A DNA stretch of 63,910 nt, filler included, from Collodictyon triciliatum (lineage: Eukaryota): NCBI GenBank assembly GCA_043381765.1. It is 5 parts of 5 records of this genome, joined end to end, with 100 filler letters (N's around TTAATTAATTAA, not from the genome) between each part and the next. Parts side by side here need not be neighbours in the genome. Positions count along the whole stretch, not along the records: positions 34,829 to 52,129 come from JBHJMP010001467.1; 4 more parts are not named here. One strand, given 5' to 3'. The notes beneath the pieces are model-generated. The model did not search any database. It was given only the letters and a program-made list of their open reading frames with translations, and had not been told where the DNA came from. Below, piece after piece: positions 19,529-52,515 of the stretch. The position numbers and the translations under genes were made by a program. Position 1 is the stretch's first letter. Each line of letters begins with the position of its first letter.

Positions 19529-19911
19529 NNNNNNNNNNNNNNNNNNNNNNNNNNNNNNNNNNNNNNNNNNNNNNNNNNNNNNNNNNNNNNNNNNNNNNNN
19601 NNNNNNNNNNNNNNNNNNNNNNNNNNNNNNNNNNNNNNNNNNNNNNNNNNNNNNNNNNNNNNNNNNNNNNNNNNNNNNNNNNNNNNNNNNNNNNNNNNNN
19701 NNNNNNNNNNNNNNNNNNNNNNNNNNNNNNNNNNNNNNNNNNNNNNNNNNNNNNNNNNNNNNNNNNNNNNNNNNNNNNNNNNNNNNNNNNNNNNNNNNNN
19801 NNNNNNNNNNNNNNNNNNNNNNNNNNNNNNNNNNNNNNNNNNNNNNNNNNNNNNNNNNNNNNNNNNNNNNNNNNNNNNNNNNNNNNNNNNNNNNNNNNNN
19901 NNNNNNNNNNN
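19529..19911. other. Scaffold gap (N run)
   Basis: N run without linker. Confidence 0.95.
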
Positions 19912-32943: not shown

Positions 32944-32974
<31 letters not shown>

Positions 32975-34560
32975 CAATTGAATTAATTTCATTCACCTTT
33001 TGCATTAAGATAGTTCAATTTTCTTTTTCATGTAACTTTTACAGGTTTTCCCATGGGAGATTGACTTTGGTTCTCTTTCTCTTACAAAGAGAGAGCTTGG
33101 CTCAGGTACATTCGGTGTTGTTTATTTTGGTGAGTACCAGGCACGGCCCGTTGCGATCAAAAAACTACTGAATCAAAACCCCCATGACAGACAATATTTT
33201 AACTTGCTTGCTGAAGTCAACATCATGAGGTATACTCCCACAAAATAAGATGACAGTCTTGAAATAAGTTATCACTCAGAGCTCGTTTTTTTTTTAAAAA
33301 GAAAAAACAGAAATAGAAGAATACCTTTTCCGCTATGATGTATCGGTGGAATTTAATACGTCTGACAAAATAACCCCCCAGGTCTATAACTCACCCACAC
33401 ATCCTCTCGTTTGTCGGTGCATGTCTCAAACCACCAAACATCAGTCTCGTTATGGAATATGCGCCAAGTGGAAGTCTACGTGATGTCCTCGATGACCGCC
33501 GGGTATAGAAAAAATAGTGACAATGCACATTCATATTTGGATTATATAATAGGGCGTTTAATGAATGAGAATTCAAATGAAGCCATATGCTCGGCATAGA
33601 TTTCACTAAGTGCACAATTAGATTTGGTCATCACTCGCTTCTTCTTTTTTTATCTTCATATTCCAAATAGCAATATATCGACAAAGAATTCCAATGGGGT
33701 GTACTGGAACAAGCTGCTAGTGCCATGCTTTATCTCCACACGCGAATACCAGCCATTTACCACAGAGACTTGAAAAGTGATAACATTCTGGTAATGCTTT
33801 TCAAAAGAAAAAATTGGCGTAGTCCAAAATTAGAGCGATTATATTATTTAAAAAAGAAAAAGCAATGATTTAACAGTTTCTGTCTCTCATTTGTCCCTAT
33901 CAAAGCGATACCACAGCATTCGAATAAGATTATCATCCAAACTTTTTTATGTACTTACTTTTTCAAATACCTGGAACGGAAACAGATATTCCAGCTTTCA
34001 CCTGTAATCGCAAAAATAGCTGATTTCGGCCTTGCTCGAGTCAAAAGTGACACGCAAACAATGACCAAGTGCGGAACAAGGGCTTGGCTTGCGCCGGAGG
34101 TAAATAATTTACAATTGATTTATAATCATCGTCCTTATTATAAATAAATAATAATAAGTAAATAAGTAGAAGGCTGTACAAAAAGAAAGAAAATATAGCA
34201 AAACAGCTATTCCATGCAACTGCAACTGCAACTGCGATATAGGTTCTGAAAGGCCTGTATTACGACGAGAAGGCAGATGTTTACAGCTTTGCCATCGTAA
34301 TGTGGGAGGTCCTGACTCGAGACCATCCTTACGACGGCGTGAATGGCGCAAAGCTGCATATGGACGTGGTTGCCGGTGCCCGTCCGTATCCTGTCCAAGG
34401 TGGCGACATGTTTCTTGTGGAGTTGATGCAGCGGTGTTGGGCGACAGAGCCGTGCAAAAGGCCTCGCTTCTTGGAGATACACGCATTTCTCCATAGCCGC
34501 CCTCCGCCCGACCAAAACGACGGTGAAGTCTCTGTGTGCGTTGTGAATCCCGGCGCATGA
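19996..34560 (+). CDS. Receptor-type protein: kelch repeats, CUB-like and Cys-rich ectodomain, single TM, TKL-like pseudokinase, class III cyclase-like domain, TKL kinase; many introns, internal gap 23068-23646
   Basis: Many IYGG/FGG...DLW kelch blades; CUB-like ITDGSGPSHYMPFSNCTWIV (~24040) and FPKGEKCIWHF (~28770); Cys-rich CVCPMNHY...CRSC and CQCPSGYY; TM ~29658-29720; two kinase domains around an LRVRMAIHVGEP...DYYGP cyclase core; start codon tentative. Confidence 0.85.
32854..32970. repeat. (TTTTG)n intronic microsatellite
   Basis: Tandem pentamer. Confidence 0.95.
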
Positions 34561-34608
34561 AAACAATACCCAACTTGTTGCATCTTGTCGGCTCGTATTA
34601 GTTTTTTC

Positions 34609-34728: not shown

Positions 34729-34828
34729 NNNNNNNNNNNNNNNNNNNNNNNNNNNNNNNNNNNNNNNNNNNNTTAATTAATTAANNNNNNNNNNNNNNNN
34801 NNNNNNNNNNNNNNNNNNNNNNNNNNNN
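34729..34828. other. Artificial contig linker N-TTAATTAATTAA-N
   Basis: Same 100-nt structure as 17316-17415. Confidence 0.95.
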
Positions 34829-34842
34829 AAACAAAACAAAAC

Positions 34843-34894
<52 letters not shown>

Positions 34895-35003
34895 AGAAAA
34901 AAGAAAAAAGAAAAAGCGGGGGCTCACATGCATATACTTTAGGCAATCACAACCAGCAGCAACGTCAGGCAAGGTTAACCTGTAACCAAACAGTGGCCTG
35001 ACG

Positions 35004-38000
35004 ATGGCACACCACACCCAGTCGAACGCATCTGAGCAGGTATCACCATTTTTTTCTTTTCAGTTTCCTTTTTCTTTTTTCTTTTCTTTTTCTATTTTAT
35101 TTCTATCGTGCTGCCTCTTCTGTTTCTATTTTATTTCTACTTTTATTTCTTGTGTATCTTACGCGACTTGAATAAAACGGCATAACGCAGCCGGACTGGA
35201 GCGTATACGCACGCACGGGAACTCCCTGGTCCAGTATCTGCGGCCAGGTGACTTGGCCTCCAGGACTCTCCGAGGCCCTTGTCGGACATGGTCTAAACTC
35301 GCCTGAAGACCTCTACCTTATCGACAACCAAAGCTTGCTCTGGATTCTCTCGTCCCTGGGTATCCAAAATCCTTACTGGTCTATCATCTACGAGCACCAC
35401 CAAAAACTGCTGGCGTGGAAGACACAGGACAACGACTGGCAAGATCTGGCCTCGTGGCTTATCTCCAACCAATTTGATGGACCCAGTACTCTCCTTCAGT
35501 ATCATAGCCATCTTAATTTTGGGCAGTTTTTCTTCAAGGATGGGCACTTTGTTCGTCTCTCACGTTTCACACGCCAGCCCATTACGCTGGAGGCAATCAC
35601 TCGCTGGGCTCCACCGGGATATACACCTTTCAGTCTCCCTCATTTTGAGTATCGTGTTGGATTTCCATGGGAGTCTGGCCAGATGAGCCGTTTAGGTTGG
35701 AATTCGGTCGATATGCTGGCCTCTCTTTCTCCTGAAGCTGCTTTTCAGACGATGCAACAATTCCAAATCCCAAGGCCAGCCATACTCCGAATGTTGGCTG
35801 TCATTCAGTCGTTGAAATACTGGTATAGTCTTGGTCTTCGATACATGTGCCACATTCTTTATTGTCGTGGGTACCAAAGCATATCAGACTTTCAGTACCT
35901 GACTCACACGGTTTTTCAGGGGCTCTTCAATTACACATACCCGCCCAACGAGATAAAAATTTTGGAGAATCTAGTCTACCCGCCCATTCATGTCCCAGCA
36001 GAAAATCACATTTTCATAGTGTTGGCCTATAAGACACCACAAAGTTCCCTGGCCGAAGGGAAACCCAATATCCAAATACTTGTAGGCAACACAGTGTCAA
36101 TTGAACTCCTGCAGGCGACCGAATATCCAGGTATTTTCTTTTTCTGCTGCAACCAAACACAGCCATTTGACTATAGATTTGGTTTACATCTTGGGGAAAC
36201 AACAATTTTCCAAACCGAGGCGTACTTTTCAATGAAAGAATGCACATCTCCACACGCAGTCTTTCATCACGAAATAAACTTTGAAGTGCCAAGTTCCACT
36301 TTCGAGGATTTTACAGAGCCGTTCTCTCTAGAGGATGCCGATTTGTTATTTCAGAGCATTATCGAACCAAATGCGCTGTCTGCTCACTCAGGACCAAGCA
36401 TAGCATTCAAGGTGTTTGTGGAATCAGAAGATGGTCGTAGAGCCCTTGTTGCTGCGTATGATGATTGGAAATCCAGACGACCTATCTTTTTCGTTGCGAA
36501 TCACTTTATTCAGCAATCTACCATGGGTATATTGACCATCTACGGGCAGAATGATGTGCTCGACAGCTCATCTCGATTAATTCAACCTTGTGTGCATCTG
36601 ATGTCTGGGGAGAATAAGGCTATTATGGAACTATCAAACACTGACGAGAATGGGATATATAGGGCAATAATTCCGTCGGTATCAGATTTGCTAATTAGAT
36701 TCTCTATTCCGACAACACCTCCTATTTTTCAGTCTAGGAGGCCCTTTAATATAGACTCAAAGTCTTCTCCTCTGTCATTGTTCTTTTTTCACAATGTTCG
36801 ATTTAACGCCCTCGAAAAGTCTACAGCCTTGGCGGTGATGTCTCAACATAGTTACGCAATGGACACATGTGCCTTTTTTCAGAAGATTGCTTGGCTTCTT
36901 TTCCGTGCTACTTTTCAAAGAGAGTTTCTATTTGAGTCTCCGTTCTTGGACCTTGAATACCCATTCACCACCCAGACTCTATACAGGATATTGAAAACTT
37001 TTATCATCCAAACGAATGCAGATCGCAGGGTTGAATTGAAGTCTGTGTTGTCACTCTGCCAATCAGCGTGCTTCACTTCAAGTGACAATCTATTCCTGGG
37101 AATACTCTTTACGTTTGTTCATGACTTATGCTTCCCCTTTCCTGGAGAATCCGCGAAGAGCTCTGAAAATTATGATGCCATGCAACAATATGAATTCGTG
37201 TCTACCTTGGCATCATGTATTCAGGCCGGTATGAAGGGTCAGCTCTCTGCGGACATGTTGAAGCATGTGGATGTCAAACATCTTTTGGATGTTCTTGGGA
37301 ATAGAATTCTCTTCTTCTTTGTCTCAAGAGCTATTGAATTCGTGCATTTTGTCCATCTTTTCAATGCAATCGTGGCCCTAGTAAGGACAAGTCCCAAGAT
37401 AGAGGCCAGCAGCCAAAAAATCCTTGAAACAATCGGAAAAATGAATGTAGCCCATCTACCACAAATCTTTCTTGGTAGCATATTCGAGTGCTTGGTTTCA
37501 GAAATTACAGAGAGCCCCCTCTCAGCCTTCCTGCTGTTGACTAATCTACTTCACCCCGAGGGTAACGCTTATATTTCTTTTCATCCATGCATGTTTTATC
37601 TGCAACTCCTTGTGAATATGGAGCTTTCATAAAATCTCACAATTATTAATTAGTTTTGTCGCATTCGACCAATAATGAATTTTTTTTCATTTTGGCGTCT
37701 AACTTTCTTTTCCAAAACATACAGACTCATCTATGTTGTATCGTGAGCTTTGTAAGCTTCCTCAGAAAAAGCCCATCATTCAGATTGCCATGGAAAAAGC
37801 TCTTAGAACTCTTTCACCGGGCGACGCATTGGCCATGATAAGAAAGTTTTTGGAAACGACAGAACACGCTCTACTTAACGATCTCTTTGTGTTTTACACT
37901 CCTCTACCCGGCTACATCGATGAGTTTCTCTACATGATACTCAAATTTGCTCATTCAGGGAGACTTCAAGAGAGTGTCGTCAGCAAAGTGGCGAATAAGC

Positions 38001-41000
38001 TTTTCGATGACCCAACTCGGCGGGCTAGTTTTCTGCTATCGTTGCCAAAATCTCCGTATCTTACAGAAAATTCACTTTCTTGGAAATCCTTATTGGAAAT
38101 TCTCCAGACCAAATGCAAAGCTACGAGAACCTATGACTTTTTGTGGACCGTACTTATCTACGTTCATAATCTGCACTCTCGTGATTACCATAGCCATAGT
38201 ACCCTAGATACTAAGCAGCCAGTCTCTATTGACTGCTCCATTTCTTTTGAGGATGGCCATATTATTATGGACTTCATAAACGACGAGGACCCAGTGACTC
38301 TTTTATATTCGTTGGTGGAAAAGGAAGGCACCTTTCCTGGTTGCATGCGTGTTTTGATAGAAAATATTTGCACTTGGACTTGCTCCAAAATCCCAGATAC
38401 TGCTATGTTTCTTCGAGTGTTTTTACAGGTTAGTTGATTGCAATTATTTATTTATTTATTTTTTTTTAAAAAAAAAGAAGAAGAAACAACCAAAATTTCA
38501 CACTCAACATGTACTTCTATGTATGTAAAATCACATTCATACCACAATCTCTTGTTGTGATTTACTTTTCCTTTATTTCCTTCGTTTCCTTCATTTCCGT
38601 TTGAGAGTTAACCATACGTCACAAAATAATAGAAGGACGTCCCTCTCAGCCCCATAAGTCGCACAGTTTTGGAACAATTGATACCTGAAATTCAAATTCA
38701 TGGGGATATGTTTACATTTTATGAAAATGCAGAACTGTATGGACAGTTATCGAAGACCTTGAATCGATGGAATGTCAAGAATACTATTGGAGGCTGTCTT
38801 GCATCTTTTCTGGACCGCTATGAGGTTACAACCTCTAGATTTTACAAAGACATCGTCTCTAAAACTATTTCAGTGGCAGGAATGAGCAGATTGTTTCAGT
38901 ACAAGAAATACGTGACCAAGGCGCACACAATTGCGGAGGCTAAAAATCTGAACCCAATATTTGATCAATTCGACGAACAAAAGCTTAAGGTCTCCAAAAC
39001 CATAGAAATTTTAAAGCATTATTTCCAGACCTTTCCCAAGGATGAGTCAGTAAAGAGGACCTTTGACATGCTGTCACGACTTCAAGATAATCCCAAAATG
39101 AACCTGCTGGAGTTTCTCGGGTCGAAAATCATACCTGAAGATATCTCAAAGTACATGAAGCCTCTGTTCAACTTGATAAAATCCTGTATATTCAAGTACA
39201 TATGGGACAATCAGGTCAGACACTATAAGTCCTCCAGACGTATAAGTAGTCATGGACAAGATATTATTGCTTATTTGATTCCGCCTGCCTTTGAAGAACT
39301 GAATAACTTCGTTAATGGTTTAAAAACGCAGAAAATCAGTGTTTTGTTCTTATGTCGCGCCATTTATGATCACAGATATTCTTTGAAAGAGTGTCAATCC
39401 GAAATTACTGCTGCAATCACTGCTGTAAAGGATGCTGGTTTGTCGGAGATTGCTCGTGATGAGGCACAAATTAGGGCAATCCGTGAAAGTTTTGAGTTCT
39501 TCCATAGAAACATGTCGTTCCAATCCTTCTTTGAAACATTGGGAAACCTAATAGATGTCCTGCAAATTCCTCAGGTGGAGTTGAACGAAAACTACCAGAA
39601 GATGATATCCTTTAATCAAAACATCAGCTCCATTCGCAGTAAGGTGGCGGAGTCCATAACGATGGGAACAAAATTAAGCATATTGGATGATTCCCCCTTA
39701 AACCAATTGAAGCAGAAAGCTTTTTTCATGGACGAGGTCAAGATTGACCTTGTTGCATTTGCTTCGTTCTTCAACCGAGTGTCTGCTTCACTCATCAAAT
39801 TTATTTTTGATGTTTGGACACCAAATGCTGATCACTTTGAGGATTTCATTCGCACGGCAACCAGCAAAGCAAACGACAAAATACAACAAGATCTCATCAT
39901 CAAATTTGGAATTGCTGTTGCTGCCATCTCTCCCATTCTTCGGCTGCCAGTAAAGTCAAGCCTGTCAACTTTACTACAGGATTTGAAGAAGATAGATCTG
40001 TCCGAAAGCAGACAATCGGCAATGCAGACCATTGCCAAGCGGGCTGACGAGATAAGATTCATATTTACGGACCAGGCAAAAAGTGACCAAGAGAAGGCTG
40101 TGACTCAAGTGACCAACTTCAAGAGTGCTGGCTATAAATACGTTATCCAAGATGTGGGACCAGCAAACGGGACAGAATGCGAACAGTTTCTTTCTATCTG
40201 CATTAAGGATGAGGCCAATCTCCCGAGAAACATGCCCGCTGTGTATTACTCAAAAGACGTTCAAGTATTGCAAAACAAGGTTTTTCTGGCCATGAGCAAC
40301 GAGATGAATTTGCAAGCCAAGCAAAATCTTCAAGACTTCCTAGATGGGCTTGAATCACTTCAAGGGCTGTGCAGCTTATACCAACGCCTGCAACAACTTC
40401 GACATCCCAACCATTTTAAAATACCCATAGAGATCGATTGTACAGAATCAAAAGCCGCCCTGTCGACAATATTCGACCATCACAAGAGAATTCTGAGTGA
40501 CTGGGAGCTTGAAATTCAAAGAGTTCGTGACAATCATGTTATGGTGAACTTTTTTACCATGCAACAAATTCTAGAGTTGATGAGATTGTCATTCCCATTC
40601 CAAAATGCTTGTTCAGCTTCAGAAATCTTCAGCTCCAATGTTGGGGCATACATATGCTCTCTGATTCCAGACTGGAGCGATACCGATTTTGAGAGATGGT
40701 ACCTGGGACAAGATCTGCGCATTGTCGAGAAGCCTGATCCTATTTTACATTTCAATCGCATCGCGCAGTGTTTAGATACGCTGGTGGAGAAAAAATTCAG
40801 CTCAAAACAATTATCTGACTGGGGTGACAATAGGATACTGAGAGGGAGACCGAATACAATTGTTTCTGAAAAATATACGGCCCTAAAGTCAGCTGTTTGC
40901 ATGTATATTCGTGTGTTGAACCGCTTTCCCAACCACTGGGAAATTCTGGCATGCTCGACATATACAACTGAGGAACAAATTGATCTATTCTTGAGAAGAT

Positions 41001-44000
41001 GTTTGTCAAAGCGGCAAAATCAATCAGAGTTGTACACTGTCATTGGTGTTGAGAATATTTCTCATAAACTTCAATCAAAGTTCAATGAATCCTTCCTAGA
41101 ATTAATGGAAACTCAGAAACCGAACGGCTATTGCCTGTGTTTGCACCTTTCCGAGAAACAAGATTCCCTCATATACCGACAATTTCTTCCATACAAGATA
41201 GAGGCAAAGTTTGAAACCAATAGTGAAGCCTTAGAAAAAATTAAGCCGTTGATTGAGGCCCGTAATTGCCGCGTCTTGACATTCACCTCACAGGGAGCCT
41301 CTGAAGGAAAAAGCTTCTCTATCCGAAACTGGATCTCCTCGCAACCTGGCGGTATGTCCTTGTATAAGGCTATGCAAGTCAGTAAGGACATGGATATCAA
41401 ACAATTTATTACAGGGATTGAAAATGTCCTCGACAGTGCTTGCTACATTCATTTGAACCTGGCATCCACTGTCACTGAAGTGTTCAACACCTATCTGTTC
41501 CATCTAATTTTTACTTGTTATTTGGATGATGGCCACCAAAGTTCATTTATTGTTCCGTCCGGAAAAACCTACCTCATCGAATTGCCAAATGTATACAATA
41601 AATTAGAGTTTGAGAAAAAGATTAATCTCACGGGCGTTTTCGAGCCGGGCCTAGTCCTTCAAGAACTCGATGTGACCAATAATACTGACCCAGCATTGGT
41701 TGTAAATGTCGAGGGCACTCATGTTAACAAAATCCAGTATGTTTGCCAATACCTGAAAGCAAAGGAGACTCTAACTGCTGCAGCGTTTGATGTTTCAGTC
41801 CGAAAATATTCAGAGTTACCATCTCATGAGTGTGTTTTATAGATTTTATTACTATTTTTAGATGTTTTCAAATAACTCTGGAATCAACCCCCTCCTCCCC
41901 AAAGAAAAGAAAAGAAAAGAAAAGAGGAAATATTCGTGTATTTCGTTCTGCTTTTAATTAACCTCAATCTCACAACTCTTGCAATAAAAATATAGATGCA
42001 GCCGACTACTAAATGAATCGTGTGATCTTCCCAGAGGCCAACAGATGGCTTTTATCAACATTATGTGTTATCTTTTGCACCTATTCAGAGCATACTTGAA
42101 GACTCGAATAGCGACTTTTAATGCAGACGCAAAAATGATTTTGGTGAGCTATCTAACCTATCTCTTTCCGATACGATGCCATTTTGATAAAAAATCAAAT
42201 TATATTGATAAAAATTAGAGTAATATAGAATTATTGGAATCAATCCATGAAATCTGCAGTGTTCATGTAAAAAAACTATAAATCTAATCGTTTGCCATAA
42301 TGCAGATTTTCGATGCCATCGAACGTATGTCTGTGGATATTTCACGCAGCTGTCTCAAAGAGGAGCTGAATATGGGGGAAAGTAGCGAGACAACAGCATT
42401 TCGTTCCTTTGACTTGCAAACAAGTTGGGAAAATTCGGGGCTTCCTATTGTCTTATTCAACCAAATCACTGGAGAACCTCCTGTCTTTGTTACATTTAAA
42501 GAAAAAGGACTCCCTCATTTGGAGGGAATTCGCCATGACGATGTTTTGAATGTGAACAAGTTTAGCCAAATAGATTATATGCGTTACGTCTCCATACTCG
42601 TTGGGGACAGTGTAGAGAATGTGAAAGAATATATCAAAAGTGATTCCGAGGCCAGCAATTTTGTCTTTACACCTGGGAATTTTGCAAGAATCATATCGAC
42701 ATACCTAAGAATGTCTGCTGGTCTTCCTGTTGTGATTGTTGTATGTGATTTCTATTCGCCAAGAAATTAGCCCCTGGGGGCAATATACACTATTGATTAA
42801 CTACGATAGATAATATTCTTATCCCGCCATCTAAGTCATCATTTTATTCTAACAGGGAGAAACTGGATGTGGCAAGACTACCTTATTCAAGTTTCTATCT
42901 ACTATTATTGGCTCCCCCATGGAGACACTCCGAGTTCACGGTATTTTGAAATAACCTACCTTGAAAATATTAACACCCTTTCCCAAGGAAACAAAAATAA
43001 TTATATGTTTAGAACTTGAGAAAAATAGCAAGACCCTTTTATCGTGAACGTGAGTCGAAAAACAATATGGGATATGAATGAAGTCTAGTGATCGTGTTTC
43101 TTTGTTTCTTTTTTTTTTTTTTTTTTCGTCGATGCTACCAGGTGGCGTCACGGAGAATGAAATTCGGATGGTTATCGATGCTCAAATCGGTAATGTAAAA
43201 ATAAATTATATAAAAAATGTGCTTATGTATTCGTCCTGAAATTCTCTTCAAATAAAAATTTTTTTTAGAGAGGGCCAACCAATCTCCAAGCTCAAATTTT
43301 TACGTTTTTCTCGACGAAATCAATACTACTCCACTTCTCGGGCTATTCAAAGGTTCGTTTATCCATCAATTTTCCCATCATATTATTTATTTATTAGAGA
43401 ATTATTTACTTTATTTGAAAGGATGTTGATTTTAAGGCACGTTTCTAATAAAAAAAAAATCACAAACCTTCTTGTTACGCCCAGAAATGATATGTGACCA
43501 TTCCATCAACAGTGACCCTATTCCCAGCAACGTCATTTTTGTCGCTGCTTGCAATCCATTCCGTAAGAAAGGGACTTCATCAAAGATATCAGAGTTGGAT
43601 TGCGCACTTTCGGCACCAACAACCAACGCTGAAACATCTCACCAGTTTGAAAACCTTGTTTATGCTGTTCTTCCCCTTCCACTTGCATTGTCGAATTATG
43701 CCTGGGATTTCGGGTCGCTTTCTGAAAAGGATGAGATGTCATATATCGAAGCGATGGTACATAGCCAGATTCCTGATGAACACACTGCTGATATCTTCTC
43801 TTCGTGTGTATCAAAAAGCCAGCTGTTCATTCGAACCAAATGCAAGGAAAGCACGTTTGTCACCTTGCGAGATGTCAAAAGGAGTCTGCAACTTTACCAT
43901 TGGTTTGAAAAGGTCAGTTCGAATCGTCAAAATTACCATGTCTTTGCAATATCAATAATATTGACTACTCTAAGTGCGGTTATATGAAAATGGATACATA

Positions 44001-46588
44001 TGTCCACCCTACTGATATTCAATTTCCAAAACTGAATGATCAATCAAGATAAAATTCGAGCCACCTCAAAGAACTGAAGGAATGCTTAAGGATTTATGGG
44101 AACAGTATTCGTGTGCTCCAAGTCTTGACCATCCAGAAAGGTCCATGATACTATCAATGATAGCAAACTACATGTTCCGGCTACCGTAAGTTAAAAAAAA
44201 ATACTCAAATCTAATCCAACCCAAAGAATATCTCTAAATGTTTTCAGTGATTGAGTTTCATCTGCAAACATTTAATGCTTACTTTTGTTAAATGTAGAGG
44301 CTTTCTTTTATTCTTAAAAAAAAAACTGTTGTTTGAGGGAAACGTATTACTTCATAGAACTAACGAGCTCAGATCGGAGTATTCGAAACTGATCGCAAAG
44401 ATTCTCAAAGTTGAAGAAAATCATATTGATTTGGTCCTTAAGAGGGAACAGTATCTCTACGTCGAGCAGATGAATATCCCTGCGGACACTGCACGTAATT
44501 CAGCGTTGTTGGAAAATTTCTTTATGATGGTCACAGCTCTTTCCAACCGGATTCCGCTATTGGTAATCACACACAAAAAGATCAGAGAATGCAATTTTAA
44601 TTTTCTAGAAAAATTTATATCCCACTTGTATGGGTTCAATGTAAAATCGTGAATGTTATATTTGAGCTTTTTATGCACCGGAGATTAGAACATCCTAAAT
44701 ACTGATTGTCATCATAATACGTAGATTATTGGGAACCCAGGCTCTTCCAAATCCTACAGCTTGCATATCCTCAATAAAAACCTGACTCCAACCCAGAAAG
44801 TCAGTAATCCGAGACTGGAAAAGCTTAAATCATTCTCATGTGTCACTTACCAATGCTCCTCAGAATCCACATCAGAGGGTATATTTTTATTCGAGCTGCT
44901 TATCCAATCACATAAATTGTTATCATATCTTGTCATTTTAACACTTGAATGTATTCTGAGTATGAAAATCATTAAAAAGGAATCTTGACTGCTTATGAGA
45001 GAGCCAAAGTATACGACAGCGATACAAATGTTCCAGTCGTTGTTCTAGATGAAGTGAATATGCCTCCCTCTTAGCCATATTGATGTTTACTATGTGCTTA
45101 GAGATGAAATTTTGAATCAATATTCATCATCCATCTAAATATCGCAGATTGGACTTGCTGAGCAAAGTGAAAAAATGCCTCTGAAAGTTTTACACTGGCT
45201 CTTTGAAGACGAGAGGGTAGCTTTCCTTGGACTTTCCAACTGGAAATTAGATGAAGCCAAAACGAATCGCGCGGTAAATATTATCATAACTTGTAAAAAT
45301 ATGTATATGACTACCTTGGTATTCTGTCATATACTAATTAAAAATGAATTTTTTTGGTGGATGCTAGCTTTTCATTACACGACCGAGGATAACAGAGCAG
45401 GAACTGATTGACACAGCTAAAGGGATGCTAAACATAGGCCAGAATGATATCGTGGGTCTTGATTATTTTGTTTCTATTGTAACATGAAATTCAACCTTCT
45501 ACCTTAGCTCACCAAAAAAAAAAAAATAGTAATAATAATTCACTATTATGAACTTAATTAAGAGATCTGAATCCGTTTCAAGAATCGCATCTTGCTTCTT
45601 TAATATTTACAATCAACAATTATCTTGGTTCAATAAGCAGTATTATGGTGGGCTTTTTTTTTTGAGGAATTTTTAATGATGTGTCCGTTGCTAGTTGCCA
45701 ATTATTTCTTATGGTTTCATTATACAATTAAAATATTGACCTTTTTACAGGGCTTCGTGACTTTTACTTTGTAGTCAGGGGAATACACAGCGAGATTTCA
45801 TTCGAGCCTGAAAAACTCGGTTATATGATTTCTCGGAATTTGAATGGTCGCAAATACGAATACTTTCAAAAGGTTCTAAAAATATTTGAGGACGAATTCA
45901 ATCTTAATGTCCCAAGAAGCAGCTCAATTAACTTGGTAAATTAGTAATTGATGTATTATTTTTATTTTATTTTTTTACCTACGGGCGATTTCTTATTAGG
46001 GTACTTTATGCAGATTTTTAACTTTGAATTTCAAAAATTCAAATAGATTAAAGAGAGCATCAACGACTCAAACTCTCGCCATTTGATGATCGTATCTAAA
46101 GGAAACAAGCTATCGTTTGAAAGTCTTTTCGATATAGGGATAGTTTCGTATGATAAGTGTACTGTCTTTTACGCATCTGATTTCGCTGAAGATAAACAGG
46201 TGAATATCCAGCTCATTAAATTAAACCTCCATTTTCTTGGTTGTACTTTTATATGTATTGAGAAAAATATGAAACTATGAATTAATAGACACTAGGCAAC
46301 TAACAACTTTTTTATTATTATTTTGTGAGACATCTGTAAACAAATAGTATAATACTCAATAGGAATATGCAATATATCAAAGTGTCAGCAAACTTCGGGA
46401 TTGTATGGAAAGAGGTGAAAGAGTTGTTCTTGTCGACCAAAAGTCGATTTATGACAGCCTTTATGACTTGCTAAACCTGGTACAAACAAAATTAATCAAT
46501 TCGATATTATTTTCAATCATCCAAGCTGACTTGATGGGTTTCTAGAACTGCATGATAGGGCTTCTTTTATTTATGTTAAATTGTTGTT

Positions 46589-46634
<46 letters not shown>

Positions 46635-46999
46635 TTTTTTTTTTTTTTTTTTAATTTTTTTTTTTTTTTTTTTTTTTTTGCCGTCTTTACGTACTGAAAA
46701 TTTGATAGCATTACTTTAGAGTCGGAGACAAAAATTACTGCTATCTTACGATTGGCGCTCAAGCTGACAAACCATTCTTGGTTCATCCGGCTTTCAAATG
46801 TATTGTAATAGCTACTGAGCAAGACGTTAATCAAAATTCACCGTCTGGGTTGCCTCCGCCATTCTTGAACCGATTTGAGAAGCAACTGTTTATCCTCGAT
46901 GATATTTTGGCTCACTACAATCTCAATGGGATAGAAAATAAAATACAGGTTTCAATCGATGATGATCTATTTATTTTTTCCTTTATGACAATATTGGTT

Positions 47000-47054
<55 letters not shown>

Positions 47055-50000
47055 ATATTTGTTTTTTTTTTTTTTTTGAGATTTGAATTTTCTTTCATTG
47101 GAACAGAATGTTACCAACAAATAATTTTATTTGTTTTCAAAAATTAGGATAGGTTGAAGAGGCATAAAATACCAATGCTAAAGGATGAGCCTTCGGCATT
47201 TTTCTGCTGCACAAACATCGATACATTGCGATCTTTAATCATCTCTGAAATTATAATAAAGAGAGGAAAGACATCAGGAATTACTAAACAAAATGAGATA
47301 CCACCTTTTGAGGATATTGTCAAGACCGTGAATGAAGAAGAGGTTTACATGCATAATCTTGAAAACTGCCATTAATATTTTAATCCTCCTTTGTGTATCG
47401 AAACGTACAAATTTTCCTCCATTTGTTTTGTTTTGCTTTCAGCAAGCTGAACATTCATATGTGGTAGGTCTTGGAGTCTTGCTGGAACAAAATATTGATG
47501 GTATCCCGAACAAATCAAGTTTTGACCCTTGGAGACAAAACAGTAATACTCCTTTTATGTTTTATTAGATGTCGCATATTTTGCAGTATATTTTTATTGT
47601 AAAGTTAAGGTTTTGAAAAGGTATTTAAGCTGGGTTTTTGTTATTATCACATAACTTGTCCTATTTTTCATTCTGTTAATTCCTGGAAAGGTTGAGAAGA
47701 AATATATGGAATCTCAAAAACATGGATGTTTAATCGATTATCTTGAGCATATTTCTTGGGAGCATCTGTCGCGCCATGAAAGGCTAATTCAAGTCTTGAC
47801 GTATACCGCTCAAGTGCCTGATGCAGCTCTGAAAGGAATTTTAGGACCTGAAAAAAGTGCTCTTGTAAGATATAATTTGCCTCCATGGTTATGAAAAATA
47901 TAGCTTCGCTTCGATTCTTAATCCAAGGAGACCGTTTACCATAGTAATTCTCAATCAAAATCTTCTTTCATTTTTTTTATCTGAAACAGGTCTGTACCAT
48001 GAATGCTACGCAATACAGCTCTTCTAAAAGGCTAGGTTCGGATTTAGACGCATTCTTTAAGTCCAAAGAGAGACTCTTACTGATTAGCTGTGACTTGAAT
48101 TTCTGCGATCAAAAGAGGATGACTCACTTGAAATACATGTGCTCCAAGACCATGTCAATGTGGACAAACATACCATCGAATGCGCATAAGGTCATCGTTG
48201 TTGTTTGCTATCTCCCAAAGCCCAAAATTGAAATGGAGAAGGAGATAAGCGTACATTTTGACCGAAATTGGTTGATAACATTTTTGGACTCTGTGTCACA
48301 GTCAAGCCTGTCGTTGGAAGCTTTATGCTCAAGGAATGTGCTGGATTCTCTCGAGCAGCTGCAAAAAGACGAGCTTTCAAATATTGTTCGATTTGAGTAT
48401 CTGAATGCGGCTCACAGAGTAGTCTACACCAGAAAAGTCTCCTACATGAACAAAATAGATCAAGTCCAAAAGATAATGAGTGAACCACGTCTTATCCAAG
48501 GAATTGGAAAAGTTATGGGTGTCCTTTTATCAAAAGCTTCCAGGGCCGACGGCGGACTAAAGGTAGATATCTTGGCTGTCTGCAAGGATGAACCGCTTTT
48601 GGCAAGGTATGGAAGTGTACGAGAAGCAGCTTTGAGCAAACTTCGAGCGATTATCTCATCGCAGGTCGCATATTTACTTGCAATCATCGACCAGTATGAA
48701 AACCTTTCACTGATTGCCGACCGCACATCCCAAGCAAGTACAATAATCGCGAAGCTTTTTAGTGAAATTTTGAACAAAGAAATTATGTGGAAGAGCTGCA
48801 TCGATTCTGGACCGCTGCAATCATCAAATAGCACTGTAACCGCTCTGATTCATGGCCGATTTAAGTGTCAATACCCATTCAGCAATTTGATTTTTACCCA
48901 CGTAGAAAAATTCCGACTGGCTACGCTAGCAAGTGCCAAAGGAAAAAATCTGGACATCGTTACATCATGTCTTAGGAAATTCACTGATGAAATATTTGAT
49001 TTTTCAGAATCCGTGGGTCCGGATATGATTGTCTATTATATTAGTGACTTTGTCTTTTATTCGGGCATTTTGCAGAAATCTTACACCGAATACGATCAAA
49101 GGCTTTACTCCAAGGTTATTCATTTGATTGGAAGCTCAATATCCAGAGAATTCGACATCGAATCTGTTCATAGTTTAATGTGGATATATTCTGACTGGCT
49201 CAAACCGATGCTGGAATCGCTTCATTCACTTTCGGAAAACTTTTTACGAAGACTAGTGATTGAAATAAGTGAAATGAAGCCAAAAACCCCATGTGCCCTG
49301 CTAGAAGGTTTGTTTGATAAAGTCTGCGGGTTTTATCTAACAAACTCGTTCTCTAGCTCATCTAGTCTACGACCAGAATCCACCCAAGAATGGATTGAGA
49401 GCCTTAGTTGCCTTGATATCATACTGAATTCCATCATCAATGCTTTTTCCAACTTTGAGGCTGAAATTACCGAAGGAAAATATCAAGAATATAAGGCTAA
49501 AGCAGTTATGGCCCGGGTGCTGAGTAAATTTGGTGAAAAGGCTGTGCGGGAAGGAGTCCTGGCCATACCCGAGATAAGGTCCTTAGGGGATGTGATTTTG
49601 GGTATTTTCAAGCAGGACACTGATTTCCAAGATACAAGACTTGTTCGACAATGCCTTTCAGTTGTATTTGCACAATCATTTAAGCAATCCGAAGAAATAG
49701 CTGACCAAAGTAGAGTTTACTTTATAGAACTTTTCTTGTTGGACTGTGTGTTCAAGTCATCTGGTAATCAAGGCGCTGCTACATTTGTTCAGGCTATGAA
49801 TCTGGCGCTCAAAGGGACTGATCCGGATCTTTCTATGATATCGAAGTTTACCGTTCATGAGTATATTCGAAGGGAAATTATGGCTTATGTTGCTCGTGAA
49901 GCTCTGAAGAAACGAGATATTTATGATATTGATTTAGACGGTTTGTTCACAGAAGTTGAATCGACAAATGAGAGCAGCGTAGACCATATGGCTCATTCGA

Positions 50001-51933
50001 TGTTTTCTGAGGCGTGCGAGAATCAACTAGAATATGAAGCCGTTGAATTTAGGCCTGGAAATACAAAACCTTTGCGAGCCATGTTTTTGAAGGATATTGC
50101 TTACCTAAGAAATGAAACCACTCACTTTGTAAGAAGGATGATACAGCACAAAGAAAAGGAAGTAAATCTTACGGAGAGGAGCGTCCAAGAATATACTATT
50201 CTTTTGCAGCGCTGGTCAATATATCAGAAGCAAAATCTGTGGTACCTTTGTAAGCTGCTTTGTCGTCAAGTAGGAAATCTGGTTGCCTCTGACCTTTTGA
50301 AAGATCCTGTAATGCGTGCCTTAGTCAGTGCCTTCCCTGGTCCACCGATTGAATTCTTTATTAAAGCCCCGCCACCGTCAATATCGATTACCTTACCTTC
50401 TATTATTGATGCTGTTCCTGCCAGTGTAAACAGTCAGGTTATTGAAAATATGAAATCATTTATGGCGGATGGAAAAATCTCTCCAGCACTGTCCCAGGGC
50501 ATCACCACTTTCCGTTCTATAGGACGTTATTGGCTCAATCAGTTTTTGAATTACGTTCTAAACTATTCTCCTCCGCAGAGTAATATTGTTGATGCCATCG
50601 TTGGAAATCTAGTTCAAACCACCAACATCCCCTGCCGGCAGGATTTGCTAGTCTTGGTTATAGGAAATAATCACCTCATTCCTAGGCCCGAGTTGAGGTC
50701 CTTTGGAAATAACCAGTCGAATATTTTGAAACTCAACTTTATTTACTCATTGGCCCTGTTCTATGCGGTTTGTCCAAGTGGTTTCTGGCCCATGGAGACA
50801 TTTTTCACTCATAATGCAGCTTTGAAATCGATGTTTCTTCCTACGATGCCTGATGACCCACGAATCCAGGAAGCGGGTTTGGATAATAGATTCACATAAT
50901 TCTTTCATGAAATGGATAATATGCTGAATGTCTGTGTGAAATATTCATAAGTCCTTTTTGAACGAATGTTTTTGTAAGAAAATAATAGTTTTGTGGTGGT
51001 TTTCATGATTTCTCCTGTTTGGACTTTATTATATTTTTAATCATTTGTAGAAAGTTTTTTGATTCAAGAAGTACTGGGCGTCTACCTTTGTCCTAATGGA
51101 CACGTTTATTTGATCGAAAACTGTACCTGGCCATACTCTGAGGGAAGATGTACACGTTGCCAAGCTAAAATTGGTGGGGTGAATCACATTGCTGTAAGTG
51201 TTTTTTTTTTTTTCCTAGGCTTTTAACTTGAATGTTATTCATATACCTCTACTTTCATCTGCAGTTTCCTGGAAATATTCGTGTTTTCCTTAACACCACT
51301 GGAAAGTTTCAACCAAACCCTCAACGGTTTTTTTTTAAAAAAAATTCAGTTAGACATACTAGTAAAAATAAAATAGTCATTTTTTTATCAACTTATGAGG
51401 AATTTTTTGAGGTTCTAAGAAATGCGCTAACCTAGATGTGGCCATAAAATGCTGCATGAATTGGTTGAACACACTCCTGCAGGATATGACGTACTTTATA
51501 TCACATTGATTCTACTCAAATAAACTATGAATCATTGTTTGGCTATAATCAATCTTTGGTAGACACAAATATGTTGAATATGTTTCCTCTTTTTTCTTTT
51601 CCCGCAGGTTGACCCCATAGCTGGCCATCACAAACTAAGAAATATGACTATCATTCAATTCCGTTTGTTGCGTATCTTGGTCAACGCAACTCTTATCATC
51701 TGTTCACTGTTGAAGGTATTTGACTGATTCAGCCCAACATCTCTATATATTTTTTATGCGTTTGTTATGATTTGATAAAATAACTAAATTAAAATCATAG
51801 ATTGATGCACTATGTACACTTCAAAAAGCGCATGAAGAATTCTTGAAAGATTGGAATGTACTTTTGGAAACAATACCTGCTGATGAGCAGAAACTGTCCT
51901 TGATTTTGAAACTCATGGTTCACGGACTACTTT
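35004..51933 (+). CDS. RNF213/mysterin-like giant AAA+ ATPase with RZ-type zinc finger; spliced, 3' end lost at contig end
   Basis: GETGCGKT (42856), FLDEINT, FVAACNPFR, LVYAVLPLP, WDFGSL, VTLRDVKR, ALLENFFMM, IGNPGSSKS (44728), VVVLDE|IGLAE, LSNWKLDEAKTNR, GLRDFY, SLYDLLN, PPFLNRFEKQ, FLPTMPDD, CPNGH...C...C..C...IGG.NH. Confidence 0.9.
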
Positions 51934-52129
51934 GTGAGTCTAACGCATTTTTTTATCGTAAATAATATGTCTTTTTTTTAGAAGAAAAAGACGACTTTTT
52001 GATATACCAAGTTCCTCATTTCTCTTTCTCTTTCTCTTTCTCTTTCTCTTTCTCTTTCTCTTTCTCTTTCTCTTTCTCTTTCTCTTTCTCTTTCTCTTTC
52101 TCTTTCTCTTTCTCTTTCTCTTTCTCTTT

Positions 52130-52229
52130 NNNNNNNNNNNNNNNNNNNNNNNNNNNNNNNNNNNNNNNNNNNNTTAATTAATTAANNNNNNNNNNNNNNN
52201 NNNNNNNNNNNNNNNNNNNNNNNNNNNNN
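52130..52229. other. Artificial contig linker N-TTAATTAATTAA-N, preceded by (TTTCTC)n
   Basis: Same 100-nt structure. Confidence 0.95.
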
Positions 52230-52515
52230 ATCGGGACTTTGGATACCGCAGATGAGTTACGAGCAAGCCTATGTTGCTGATACGGCCAAAGACACTGATG
52301 TTTCACCCACTTATATGAGAATGCACGAGCTCCAAGAGAGCGGGTATGGTGGATTATCCTCTTTACATCATATGAGCTGTGTGCATGGTCAAGGAGCGCC
52401 CGTGGCGGCAGCAGCAGCAGCAACAGGGAATGTCGTACACCAGCTCGGAAATCCGACTCAGGCAACACCTCATAGCCATTTCAGAGCACCGAATCCAGCG
52501 GATTGTATGCCATCG
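52230..52515 (+). repeat. Left arm of near-identical inverted duplication (partner 56546-56831)
   Basis: 286-bp reverse-complement match, about 4 substitutions by eye. Confidence 0.92.

What the first reader, a model, noticed from the sequence alone, without database searches (positions are those of the whole stretch)
35004..51933. RNF213/mysterin-like giant AAA+ E3 ligase in a unicellular eukaryote
Seen: the RNF213 motif series in order over ~17 kb, with both catalytic-type AAA units intact (GETGCGKT/FLDEINT and GNPGSSKS/VLDEIGLAE) and an upstream degenerate P-loop (SQGASEGKS, ~41290). Knowledge: animal RNF213 ubiquitylates LPS on cytosolic bacteria to trigger xenophagy. Inference: a cell-autonomous antimicrobial ubiquitin system in a protist, pointing to a pre-animal origin.
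Basis: partly seen in the sequence, partly recalled or inferred. Interest (0 to 1): 0.8.

Follow-up and report, generated by a model that had tools for sequence, protein, structure and literature searches.

The report
RING-less RNF213 relative in a protist
This expressed, 30-exon gene of a freshwater microbial eukaryote encodes a giant relative of the human immune and moyamoya-disease ubiquitin ligase RNF213 that keeps the ATPase motor and the catalytic RZ zinc finger but has no RING finger; similar protist genes are already in public databases.

Summary
ATG 35004 opens a + strand gene of 30 exons. It runs to 51933, where a GTGAGT donor leads off the contig.

The window is several contigs joined by N linkers. 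The gene fills one contig (34829-52129), so its neighbours tell us nothing about it.

It is a true RNF213-family protein:
- Solved-structure searches hit only RNF213.
- It matches Xenopus RNF213 at E 8e-104 over about 1000 residues.
- The AAA2 P-loop and the AAA3 and AAA4 Walker motifs are conserved.
- The RZ finger has the same spacing of zinc ligands, catalytic Cys and His as the mouse enzyme.
- A fold of the 962-residue exon matches only RNF213 E3 modules.

No RING finger is present. The C-terminal E2-docking domain lies off the contig.

RNA contigs from freshwater metatranscriptomes show 14 of the 29 introns spliced out.

The nearest relative is Diphylleia rotans, at 44% identity in the core. 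Relatives also occur in Pelomyxa, Flectonema, Epipyxis and Tetrahymena, so a pre-animal origin is supported. That origin is already visible in databases, and this scan noted it earlier in Naegleria.

The antimicrobial role is untested. Verdict: a new member of a known kind, of moderate interest.

The parts
34829..52129 (.). The single contig that carries the gene. It is bounded by N44-TTAATTAATTAA-N44 linkers, with (AAAAC)n at its start and (CT)n at its end.
35004..35039 (+). Exon 1 (ATG, 12 codons: MAHHTQSNASEQ)
   Evidence: Read from the sequence; donor GTATCA at 35040; model
35191..37561 (+). Exon 2, N-arm (aa 13-803). No Pfam family found; homologous to Diphylleia P0155 aa 5-652.
   Evidence: An X3 RNA contig ends at 37560.
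37725..38428 (+). Exon 3 (aa 803-1037)
   Evidence: An X3 RNA contig lies on 38253-38428 and then continues off it.
38633..41829 (+). Exon 4 (aa 1038-2103): linker plus the first AAA units, including the AAA2 P-loop
41288..41314 (+). AAA2 P-loop-like SQGASEGKS. It aligns with vertebrate S-x-R-x-x-V-GKS.
41996..42143 (+). Exon 5 (weakly supported; guide alignment only)
42306..42740 (+). Exon 6 (41% identical to Diphylleia P0155 aa 2210-2364)
42856..42940 (+). Exon 7, with the AAA3 Walker A GETGCGKT at 42856-42879
   Evidence: An X5 RNA contig piece covers 42856-42939.
43142..43189 (+). Exon 8
   Evidence: RNA joint 43188/43268 in X3 and X5
43269..43352 (+). Exon 9, with the AAA3 Walker B FLDEINT at 43307-43327
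   Evidence: RNA joints on both sides
43485..43912 (+). Exon 10, the rest of AAA3, with sensor-I-like VAACNP at 43541-43558
   Evidence: RNA joint 43350/43483 in X1 and X3
44049..44185 (+). Exon 11
   Evidence: RNA joint 44185/44358
44358..44562 (+). Exon 12
   Evidence: RNA joints on both sides
44725..44878 (+). Exon 13, with the AAA4 Walker A GNPGSSKS at 44731-44754
   Evidence: RNA joint 44561/44724
44980..45053 (+). Exon 14. It ends with the first half of the AAA4 Walker B (VVVLDE, 45036-45053).
45148..45273 (+). Exon 15. It starts with IGLAE (45148-45162) and carries GLSNWKLDEAKTNR.
45368..45451 (+). Exon 16
45563..45647 (+). Exon 17 (weakly supported)
45751..45935 (+). Exon 18
   Evidence: RNA joint 45934/46046
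46047..46199 (+). Exon 19
   Evidence: the X1 loose end before 46361 fits this exon's end
46363..46479 (+). Exon 20
   Evidence: RNA joint 46478/46708
46709..46948 (+). Exon 21. Its end was corrected from 46996 to 46948 by RNA.
47148..47342 (+). Exon 22. Its end was corrected from 47318 to 47342 by RNA.
47468..47542 (+). Exon 23
47691..47864 (+). Exon 24
47990..50876 (+). Exon 25 (aa 3181-4143): last AAA units, hinge and E3 module. It has no Cys-x2-Cys motif, so no RING. It ends with FLPTMPDDPR.
   Evidence: RNA joints on both sides
51051..51193 (+). Exon 26, with the RZ finger
   Evidence: RNA joint 50875/51050
51089..51187 (+). RZ finger core CPNGH-x6-C-x8-CTRC-x8-H: four Zn ligands, the candidate catalytic Cys (aa 4167) and the conserved His
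   Evidence: Pfam PF20173 E 1.9e-16; spacing compared with the mouse enzyme in preprint 10.1101/2021.05.10.443411
51265..51326 (+). Exon 27
   Evidence: RNA joint 51325/51435
51436..51490 (+). Exon 28
   Evidence: The RNA joint 51492/51611 was reported as AC..TT plus one letter; it fits 51490/51608 with one base difference in X1.
51608..51715 (+). Exon 29
51801..51933 (+). Exon 30, the last on the contig. It is followed by the donor GTGAGT, and the transcript continues elsewhere.
   Evidence: X1 loose end of 107 letters after 51932

Best explanation
The stretch 35004-51933 is the 5'-complete, 3'-truncated gene of an RNF213-family protein in a freshwater microbial eukaryote. It has 30 exons on this contig, which encode 4,309 residues. 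About 570 more residues are expected by comparison with the 4,971-residue Diphylleia homologue.

The protein has a long N-arm and linker, then a dynein-like ring of AAA units. In that ring AAA2 keeps a nucleotide-binding P-loop, and AAA3 and AAA4 keep complete Walker A and B motifs. After the ring come a hinge and a helical E3 module without a RING finger, then an RZ zinc finger carrying the CHCC zinc ligands, the loop cysteine and the downstream histidine.

By homology with mouse and human RNF213 it most likely works as an ATP-gated transthiolating E3. Nucleotide binding in the AAA core would switch on the E3 module. A ubiquitin-charged E2 would dock on the C-terminal domain, which is not on this contig. 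Ubiquitin would pass to the RZ-loop cysteine (aa 4167 of the model) and from there to a substrate.

Shown here: gene structure, expression and splicing, family membership, conservation of the catalytic residues, absence of the RING.

Inferred: E3 activity and ATP gating. More weakly inferred (about 0.3): the biological role, which would be marking intracellular bacteria or other invaders for degradation in a cell that lives among bacteria.
For: Sequence searches against solved structures:
- RNF213 entries are the only significant PDB matches for two exons, at E 4.4e-17 and 2.2e-6; the sole other chains scored E 0.13 and 0.85.

Homologues:
- A full HMMER scan of 1.84 billion representatives with the AAA3 exon gave 1069 proteins at E<=1e-3. 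Named ones include fish rnf213-beta, Xenopus RNF213 and Pelomyxa 'RNF213'.
- tblastn of 61 long homologues: Diphylleia P0155 is colinear from aa 5 to 4402 with 35203-51950, summing 1290 bits.
- blastp of the spliced model against Xenopus RNF213 gives three colinear segments, at E 1.6e-13, 8e-104 and 2.5e-11.

Catalytic residues:
- The motif alignment shows the AAA2 P-loop, AAA3 Walker A, Walker B and sensor, and AAA4 Walker A and B conserved with vertebrates.
- This matches the published pattern of AAA3 and AAA4 competent and AAA2 ATP-binding only (PMC7311170, passages).
- RZ finger: Pfam PF20173, E 1.9e-16, 59.8 bits against a cut-off of 27.
- Its spacing C-x3-H-x6-C-x8-C-x2-C-x8-H is identical to mouse C4451/H4455/C4462/C4471/C4474/H4483 (preprint 10.1101/2021.05.10.443411, passages).

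E3 exon:
- An iterated HMM links its first 430-540 residues to 83 family members, including Xenopus aa 3485-4039.
- The AlphaFold2 model of the exon gives 7 Foldseek hits at E<=1e-3, all RNF213 (2e-8 to 2e-6); the next hit is at 0.06.
- VIA-align gives Z 11.0, rmsd 6.6 A, 303 residues aligned to the human RNF213 E3 module 3701-4099; the next Z is 7.7.

Trees:
- The window protein is sister to Diphylleia (support 100), inside a clade (support 97) with Xenopus RNF213, fish rnf213-beta and Lineus.

Expression:
- RNA contigs from three runs in two studies show 14 of the 29 modelled introns removed; 13 are clean GT..AG joints. The contigs of a DNA run (kind guessed, 'DNA?') show none of these joints.
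Against: - No RING: there is one Cys-x2-Cys in 4,309 residues, and it belongs to the RZ finger. Pfam finds no RING.
- The C-terminal domain that docks the E2 in mouse RNF213 is not in the window, so a complete E3 module is not shown.
- The second half of the E3 exon (about 420 residues before the RZ finger) is alignable only to Diphylleia. It is modelled at pLDDT mostly below 60.
- The model as a whole is weak: mean pLDDT 60.1, pTM 0.44, Foldseek TM 0.35. Z 11 is within the range that helical proteins can reach by chance (note).
- No CBM20 or other substrate-binding domain was found in the N-arm.
- Fifteen introns rest on my own guide-based alignment only. Exons 5 and 17 are weak.
- No activity, substrate or induction data exist.
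Confidence: 0.85

Rival explanations
1. It is the same enzyme (an ATP-gated RZ-type E3) but its role is housekeeping rather than immune. Candidates are lipid-droplet or membrane quality control, or sensing of adenine-nucleotide levels, as also proposed for mammalian RNF213.
For: The preprint 10.1101/2021.05.10.443411 links RNF213 to lipid droplets, lipotoxicity and the ATP/ADP/AMP ratio (abstract and passages). No carbohydrate-binding CBM20 was found in the N-arm. The gene is seen in ordinary freshwater metatranscriptomes with no known infection context.
Against: In mammals the RZ finger is the element needed for coats on bacteria (abstract of PMC11549300). The N-arm is the fastest-diverging part, being alignable only to Diphylleia at 24%, as expected for a pathogen-facing surface. 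This is suggestive only.
Confidence: 0.35
2. The contig is contamination from an animal (for example a small freshwater invertebrate), so the gene says nothing about protists.
For: Invertebrates carry many RNF213-like genes. The organism was never named. The window is a set of unlinked contigs.
Against: Over the full length the best relative is the protist Diphylleia at 1290 bits; the best animal protein reaches about 410. The tree places the gene with the two Diphylleia paralogues at support 100, outside the animal clade. The RING seen in the animal clade is absent. A SPAG6 exon on another contig of the same assembly is 98% identical to a EukProt transcript. Contigs of the window share (CAAAA)n/(GTTTT)n microsatellites.
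Confidence: 0.05
3. The AAA core belongs to another giant AAA+ family (midasin, dynein), and the RNF213 likeness is superficial.
For: RNF213's core is dynein-like in fold (PMC7311170). One VIA-align row matches a dynein motor domain at Z 5.9 over 89 residues.
Against: No midasin or dynein chain appears at E<=1 in the PDB sequence searches. All 7 significant Foldseek hits are RNF213. Colinear homology to RNF213 extends outside the AAA core to the RZ finger.
Confidence: 0.01
4. The locus is a decaying pseudogene or an assembly chimera.
For: The gene is cut by the contig end. A public 188-residue fragment (P0005) differs by a frameshift in an A-run.
Against: There are 4,309 codons without a stop across 30 exons. 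Catalytic residues are conserved. Spliced RNA contigs at about 100% identity come from independent metatranscriptomes. The A-run difference lies in an intron.
Confidence: 0.03

Closest known systems
Vertebrate RNF213 / mysterin (PDB 6TAX, 7OIK, 8S24, 9JWG; Xenopus P0143, fish rnf213-beta P0060)
   Same: The order is colinear: linker, AAA ring, hinge and E3 module, RZ finger. The AAA3 Walker A GETGCGKT and the AAA4 Walker B VVVLDEIGLAE are identical. The AAA2 non-canonical P-loop is kept. RZ spacing and the FLPTMPDD motif are the same. Identity is 29% over about 1000 core residues.
   Different: No RING finger and no detectable CBM20. The N-arm and the distal E3 shell are not alignable. The protein is shorter, with offsets growing from -93 to about -350 residues against human numbering. 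The C-terminal domain was not available. It comes from a non-animal host.
Diphylleia rotans EukProt proteins (P0155/P0007, 4971/4950 aa; paralogue P0036)
   Same: This is the nearest relative: 44% identity over the core, colinear over aa 5-4402, RING-less, with an almost identical RZ finger (YLCPNGHVY.I.NCTWP).
   Different: Only 20-25% identity in the N-arm and E3 shell. These are transcriptome models with no described function.
RING-less RNF213 homologue of Naegleria gruberi
   Same: It is a protist protein with the RNF213 core plus an RZ finger and no RING, according to that note.
   Different: That note reports loss of the usual ATP-hydrolysis residues and an intronless gene. Here the Walker A and B motifs of AAA3 and AAA4 are intact and the gene has 29 introns. 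I did not examine the Naegleria sequence.
RZ-less RNF213-like clade (Pelomyxa KAH3743879.1 'RNF213'; Mercenaria, Mya, Asterias and Branchiostoma proteins)
   Same: They share the giant AAA core. blastp against Pelomyxa gives E 5e-132 over model aa 1830-3570.
   Different: They form the other main branch of the tree. My local RZ profile found no RZ finger in these rows. Pelomyxa has an N-terminal CBM20.
ZNFX1
   Same: It shares the RZ-type zinc finger, Pfam PF20173. Conservation of the zinc and catalytic residues is stated in preprint 10.1101/2021.05.10.443411.
   Different: ZNFX1 is an SF1 helicase, not an AAA+ ring protein. It gave no hit to any exon here.

Membership tests
RNF213 family | Dynein-like AAA ring with catalytically competent AAA3 and AAA4 (Walker A and Walker B) | tested here: met
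   GETGCGKT/FLDEINT and GNPGSSKS/VVVLDE-IGLAE align with the vertebrate motifs. blastp against Xenopus RNF213 gives E 8e-104. The pattern is described in PMC7311170.
RNF213 family | AAA2 with a nucleotide-binding P-loop but no hydrolysis motifs | tested here: inconclusive
   SQGASEGKS aligns with vertebrate S-x-R-x-x-V-GKS. Absence of Walker B and sensor I in AAA2 was not examined residue by residue.
RNF213 family | RZ zinc finger with CHCC ligands, a loop cysteine nucleophile and a downstream histidine | tested here: met
   Pfam PF20173, E 1.9e-16. Spacing is identical to mouse C4451/H4455/C4462/C4471/C4474/H4483 (sequence).
RNF213 family | C3HC4 RING finger inside the E3 module (mouse 3940-3999) | tested here: not met
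   The only Cys-x2-Cys in 4,309 residues is in the RZ finger. Pfam finds no RING at E<=0.1. My strict RING pattern hits 4 of 65 other tree rows, all in the animal clade. The RING is dispensable for RNF213's E3 activity (PMC7311170), so I treat it as a feature of the animal branch rather than of the family.
RNF213 family | E3 module fold (helical shell between the hinge and the RZ finger) | tested here: inconclusive
   All 7 significant Foldseek hits are RNF213. VIA-align gives Z 11.0 to human 3701-4099. However, the model's pLDDT is 60 and the distal 420 residues align only to Diphylleia.
RNF213 family | C-terminal domain that docks the E2 | not testable with these tools
   The contig ends after exon 30. 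The transcript continues (X1 loose end). The remainder is not in the window, and a 30-letter search of metagenome contigs did not find it.
RNF213 family | N-terminal CBM20 carbohydrate-binding domain (described for human RNF213, PMC11549300 abstract) | tested here: inconclusive
   No Pfam hit in the N-arm exons at E<=0.1 or 0.01. The Atlas search was empty. Pelomyxa has one.
RNF213 family | Phylogenetic placement with bona fide RNF213 | tested here: met
   A clade of 21 rows (SH-like 97, FastTree) or 14 rows (SH-aLRT 97, IQ-TREE) holds the window protein together with Xenopus RNF213, fish rnf213-beta and Lineus. The trees are unrooted and have no outgroup.
RNF213 family | E3 activity on LPS or other substrates; ATP-dependent activation | not testable with these tools
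   Needs biochemistry.
Midasin / dynein heavy chain | Best sequence or fold match to these families | tested here: not met
   Neither family appears at E<=1. The only trace is one dynein row at Z 5.9 over 89 residues.

The most novel reading that the evidence does not exclude
The AAA-ring plus RZ-finger ligase may be an ancient cell-autonomous defence machine, possibly dating to the last eukaryotic common ancestor. On this reading, free-living bacterivorous protists use it to ubiquitylate bacteria, or viral factories, that escape into the cytosol. The RING finger and CBM20 would be later additions in some lineages, so the RZ-only form seen here is the ancestral working core of RNF213.
Probability: 0.25. 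Interest if true: 0.8.

Novelty: new member of a known kind. Interest (0 to 1): 0.45.

Why it matters
The RNF213 papers I could read treat it as a vertebrate or mammalian protein. [quoted passage not shown]

A protist copy that is expressed in nature keeps every residue known to be needed for ATP gating and transthiolation, yet lacks the RING. Comparative evidence therefore agrees with the biochemical finding that the RZ finger, not the RING, is the core of this ligase class.

It also offers a smaller-genome system in which to ask what the ancestral substrate was.

The value is limited. Homologous protist sequences are already public, one of them is annotated as RNF213, and this scan noted the same architecture in Naegleria. 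Nothing here speaks to function.

Tried and rejected
Searches that returned nothing or failed:
- Word-indexed homologue searches with the AAA3 exon and with exon 4 (option 'longer') found nothing. The cause was length limits and divergence. The full HMMER scan then found 1069 relatives.
- Giving the whole 12-kb stretch as one translated reference failed because of 126 stops. I went back to single exons.
- No whole genome is held for this window.
- Pfam on nine exon translations found no family except later the RZ finger.
- The ESM Atlas search with the N-arm exon was empty.
- Scan notes by place were empty.

Methods that needed correction or were abandoned:
- My first spliced-alignment script had a traceback bug, found and fixed. 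It also started one base late, corrected.
- MAFFT of the exon against full-length homologues smeared the fragment. I aligned trimmed segments instead.
- hhalign of the protist E3 region against the animal E3 region aligned only the last 175 columns, around the RZ finger. The shell in between is not detectably homologous by profile.

The missing 3' end:
- The downstream exon sequence seen in run X1 is absent from the window and from metagenome contigs as an exact 30-mer.
- tblastn with the Diphylleia C-terminus found nothing in the window.

Other points:
- Parts of the gene without RNA contig cover are not evidence of anything.
- Shares under 0.2 in runs X2-X8 were used only where laid (X2, X3, X5).
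- The organism could not be named.
- Paper look-up PMC7610904 is not held.
- Literature search was uninformative because RNF213 was not a required term.

Full report
**What is in the window.** The 63,910-base window is not one piece of genome. N runs of 44 bases flank the word TTAATTAATTAA at 17316-17415, 34729-34828, 52130-52229 and 58860-58959. These are linkers between separate contigs. The finding lies on one contig, 34829-52129. That contig starts in an (AAAAC)n microsatellite and ends in a (CT)n microsatellite. The neighbouring genes lie on other contigs and give no synteny.

**Gene structure.** + strand frames hold long open stretches of 818, 244, 1069 and 983 codons, separated by short gaps, with many small open pieces between 41.8 and 48 kb. 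I wrote a protein-guided spliced aligner, using the closest full-length homologue as guide, and corrected it by eye and with RNA data.
- The model has 30 exons, from the ATG at 35004 to 51933.
- It reads 4,309 codons without a stop.
- It has 29 GT..AG introns of 71-229 bases.
- The last exon is followed by GTGAGT, and the frame is open in phase 1, so the gene continues beyond the contig.

**Expression.** A word index of public runs found the stretch in one small run of a coded organism (X1, share 0.31) and in freshwater metagenomes and metatranscriptomes. I laid X1, X3 and X5 (RNA) and X2 (listed as 'DNA?', a guessed kind) on 34990-51990.
- The RNA contigs show 14 joints. Thirteen are clean GT..AG.
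- Eleven agree with my model as first drawn.
- Two corrected it: the exon ends are 46948 and 47342.
- One (51492/51611, reported as AC..TT plus one letter) fits my junction 51490/51608 if X1 differs by one base there.
- No X2 contig shows any of these joints. Its laid pieces are short, and at least one (47541-47691) runs unbroken from exon 23 through the whole next intron to the first base of exon 24.
- X3 and X5 are essentially identical to the window. X1 differs at about 1-2% of positions.
- X1 carries 107 further letters after 51932 that are not in the window. That is direct evidence for downstream exons.
- Fifteen introns have no RNA support. Exons 5 and 17 are the weakest.

**Family.**
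- phmmer of exon 43436-43984 against all PDB chains returns RNF213 entries as its only significant matches (best E 4.4e-17, human residues 2539-2695). Exon 38633-41839 does the same (E 2.2e-6, human 1865-1969). The only other chains listed are a viral VP2 at E 0.13 and a hexokinase at E 0.85. The 983-codon exon gives nothing by sequence.
- A full HMMER scan of 1.84 billion representatives with the AAA3 exon gives 1069 proteins at E<=1e-3 and 438 at E<=1e-10. The only one at E<=1e-30 is a 188-residue public fragment of this same locus. All the others are 47% identical or less in that exon.
- Thirty representatives were looked up by name. They include:
  - Diphylleia rotans, two paralogues (EukProt);
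  - Flectonema neradi;
  - Pelomyxa schiedti (KAH3743879.1, annotated 'E3 ubiquitin-protein ligase RNF213');
  - Epipyxis sp.;
  - Tetrahymena malaccensis;
  - Xenopus tropicalis RNF213 and fish rnf213-beta;
  - Lineus 'rnf213-alpha-like';
  - several bivalve, starfish and amphioxus proteins;
- tblastn of 61 homologues of 3000 residues or more against the contig ranks Diphylleia P0155 first by a wide margin. It sums 1290 bits and is colinear from aa 5-4402 with 35203-51950. The second Diphylleia paralogue scores 697, and everything else about 410 or less.
- Since P0155 has 4,971 residues, about 570 residues are missing here.
- The spliced model aligns with Xenopus RNF213 in three colinear blocks: E 1.6e-13, E 8e-104 (29% identity over 1027 columns) and E 2.5e-11.

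**Catalytic residues.** I aligned the core with Diphylleia, Flectonema, Lineus, fish and Xenopus.

| Motif | Window | Vertebrates |
|---|---|---|
| AAA2 P-loop | SQGASEGKS | S-x-R-x-x-V-GKS |
| AAA3 Walker A | GETGCGKT | identical |
| AAA3 Walker B | FLDEINT | FFDEANT |
| AAA3 sensor-like | AACNP | AACNP |
| AAA4 Walker A | GNPGSSKS | GKPGSSKS |
| AAA4 Walker B | VVVLDEIGLAE | identical |
| After AAA4 Walker B | GLSNW-LD-AK-NR block | conserved |

This is the pattern described for mouse RNF213. There AAA3 and AAA4 are competent, and AAA2 binds ATP without hydrolysing it (PMC7311170, passages read).

**RZ finger.** The small exon 51051-51193 carries an RZ finger: Pfam PF20173, E 1.9e-16, 59.8 bits against a cut-off of 27. 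Its sequence is C-PNG-H-VYLIEN-C-TWPYSEGR-C-TR-C-QAKIGGVN-H. The spacing is exactly that of mouse Cys4451, His4455, Cys4462 (the ubiquitin-accepting cysteine), Cys4471, Cys4474 and His4483 (preprint 10.1101/2021.05.10.443411, passages read). A profile comparison of the protist and animal sequences around the finger gives probability 99.6% and E 1.8e-24 over 150 aligned columns (positions 552-726 of the 730-column query), including the shared FLPTMPDD motif.

**What is missing or unclear.**
- The model holds a single Cys-x2-Cys, the one in the RZ finger. Pfam finds no RING.
- Among the rows of my tree, a strict C3HC4 pattern occurs in 4 of 65 (Lineus, fish, and two unnamed). All four are inside the animal RNF213 clade. 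That pattern is strict; it also misses the Xenopus protein.
- The RING is not needed for RNF213's E3 activity (PMC7311170).
- An iterated profile started from the 962-residue exon grows from 3 to 83 proteins. Only its first 430-540 positions match outside Diphylleia, for example Xenopus 3485-4039.
- An AlphaFold2 model of the exon, built with 8 sequences, is of low to middling confidence: mean pLDDT 60.1, pTM 0.44.
- Even so, its 7 Foldseek hits at E<=1e-3 are all RNF213 cryo-EM structures (2e-8 to 2e-6), and the next hit is importin-beta at 0.06.
- VIA-align gives Z 11.0 (rmsd 6.6 A, 303 residues) between exon residues 287-611 and human RNF213 3701-4099. The next Z is 7.7. For helical proteins such a Z alone is not proof.
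- No CBM20 or other domain was found in the N-arm.
- The E2-docking C-terminal domain is off the contig.

**Phylogeny.** I built trees of the core, about 940 columns.
- FastTree on 66 rows. One long-branch row, P0088, was left out. Near-identical cluster members were dropped beforehand.
- IQ-TREE LG+G4 short search on 30 rows.
- Both put the window protein with Diphylleia 1 (support 100), then Diphylleia 2 (99-100).
- That group sits inside a clade (support 97) that also holds Flectonema and the animal RNF213 group (Xenopus, fish, Lineus).
- The other main branch holds Pelomyxa, Epipyxis, metagenomic sequences and a large invertebrate group. My local RZ profile found no RZ finger in the invertebrate group.
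- The trees are unrooted, have no outgroup and have no bootstraps.

**Host.**
- Spliceosomal introns and spliced RNA make the gene eukaryotic.
- The holders are freshwater, lake and subsurface metagenomes and metatranscriptomes. Only X1, X2, X3 and X5 were laid.
- Another contig of the window carries a SPAG6/PF16 central-pair gene, so the organism is flagellated or ciliated. Its first exon is 98% identical, and its last 97% identical, to a EukProt transcript whose species was not shown.
- A protist is the likely host, but this is not proven.

**Comparison with what is known.**
- My literature searches were: RNF213 + 'RZ finger' + evolution (16 papers); RNF213 + protist (8); RNF213 + 'last eukaryotic common ancestor' (4). 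I read the listings only, plus passages of PMC11549300.
- They showed no paper in the held library that describes RNF213 homologues of protists.
- The sequences themselves are public, and one is annotated as RNF213.
- This scan has two earlier notes on Naegleria: a RING-less, RZ-bearing homologue and an RZ-less paralogue. They agree with the two branches I see.

**Verdict.** The finding is real and correctly read as RNF213-like. It is a new member of a known family, with the RING-less architecture that seems to be the rule outside animals. The immune function remains an analogy.

Noticed in passing
window 17316-17415, 34729-34828, 52130-52229, 58860-58959: Pairs of 44-N runs flank TTAATTAATTAA. 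The window is therefore a concatenation of at least five unlinked contigs, and gene order across these points is meaningless. The longer N runs at 19529-19911 and 23068-23646 are ordinary gaps or masks.
   Followed up: partly
window 52230-58859 (contig 4): This contig has GC of about 50-55%, against 31-42% on the RNF213 contig. A 291-nt inverted repeat (98%) lies at 52230-52520 and 56541-56831. It forms the shared 5' part of two divergent HMG-box ORFs (52231-53445 + and 55349-57010 -). These flank a glycosyl-hydrolase-like-10 ORF (53506-54828 -, Pfam PF02638, E 1.9e-22).
   Followed up: partly
window 12385-14989 (contig 1): A SPAG6/PF16 (ciliary central-pair armadillo protein) gene of several exons. 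Its first exon is 98% identical, and its last 97% identical, to the EukProt transcript P0198. This suggests that the organism or a close relative has a public transcriptome.
   Followed up: partly
window 20552-34597 (contig 2): Kelch-repeat exons (PF24681, E 7.6e-15 at 20981-21328; 26440-26979) are followed by protein tyrosine/Ser-Thr kinase-like exons (PF07714 at 31277-31693 and 34243-34557). This may be one or two large multi-exon receptor-kinase-type genes.
   Followed up: partly
window 32.8 kb, 34.83 kb, 54.6 kb, 62.8 kb: The same (CAAAA)n/(GTTTT)n microsatellite recurs on contigs 2, 3, 4 and 5. This is a weak sign that the contigs come from one genome.
   Followed up: no
protein P0056 (Tetrahymena malaccensis, 7271 aa): This protein holds two tandem RNF213-like AAA cores (aa 2161-2915 and 6156-6942). 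The two cores are each other's closest relatives in the tree.
   Followed up: partly
proteins P0048, P0078, P0053, P0051 and others (ENA, JGI/IMG, Logan): Many family members are single uninterrupted ORFs of 4,200-4,700 residues that nearly fill metagenome-type contigs of 13-22 kb. Their hosts are unknown; they could be intron-poor protists or transcript assemblies.
   Followed up: no
protein P0143 (Xenopus tropicalis RNF213, 5220 aa): This annotated vertebrate RNF213 shows no Cys-x2-Cys cluster where the RING is expected. It has only four C-x2-C motifs in all, one of them in the RZ finger. RING loss may therefore also occur inside vertebrates, or the gene model may be incomplete.
   Followed up: no
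protein P0005 versus window 43440-43470: The public 188-residue fragment of this locus differs from the window by one base in an A-run inside an intron. That difference let a prokaryote-style gene caller fuse intron and exon into one ORF.
   Followed up: partly
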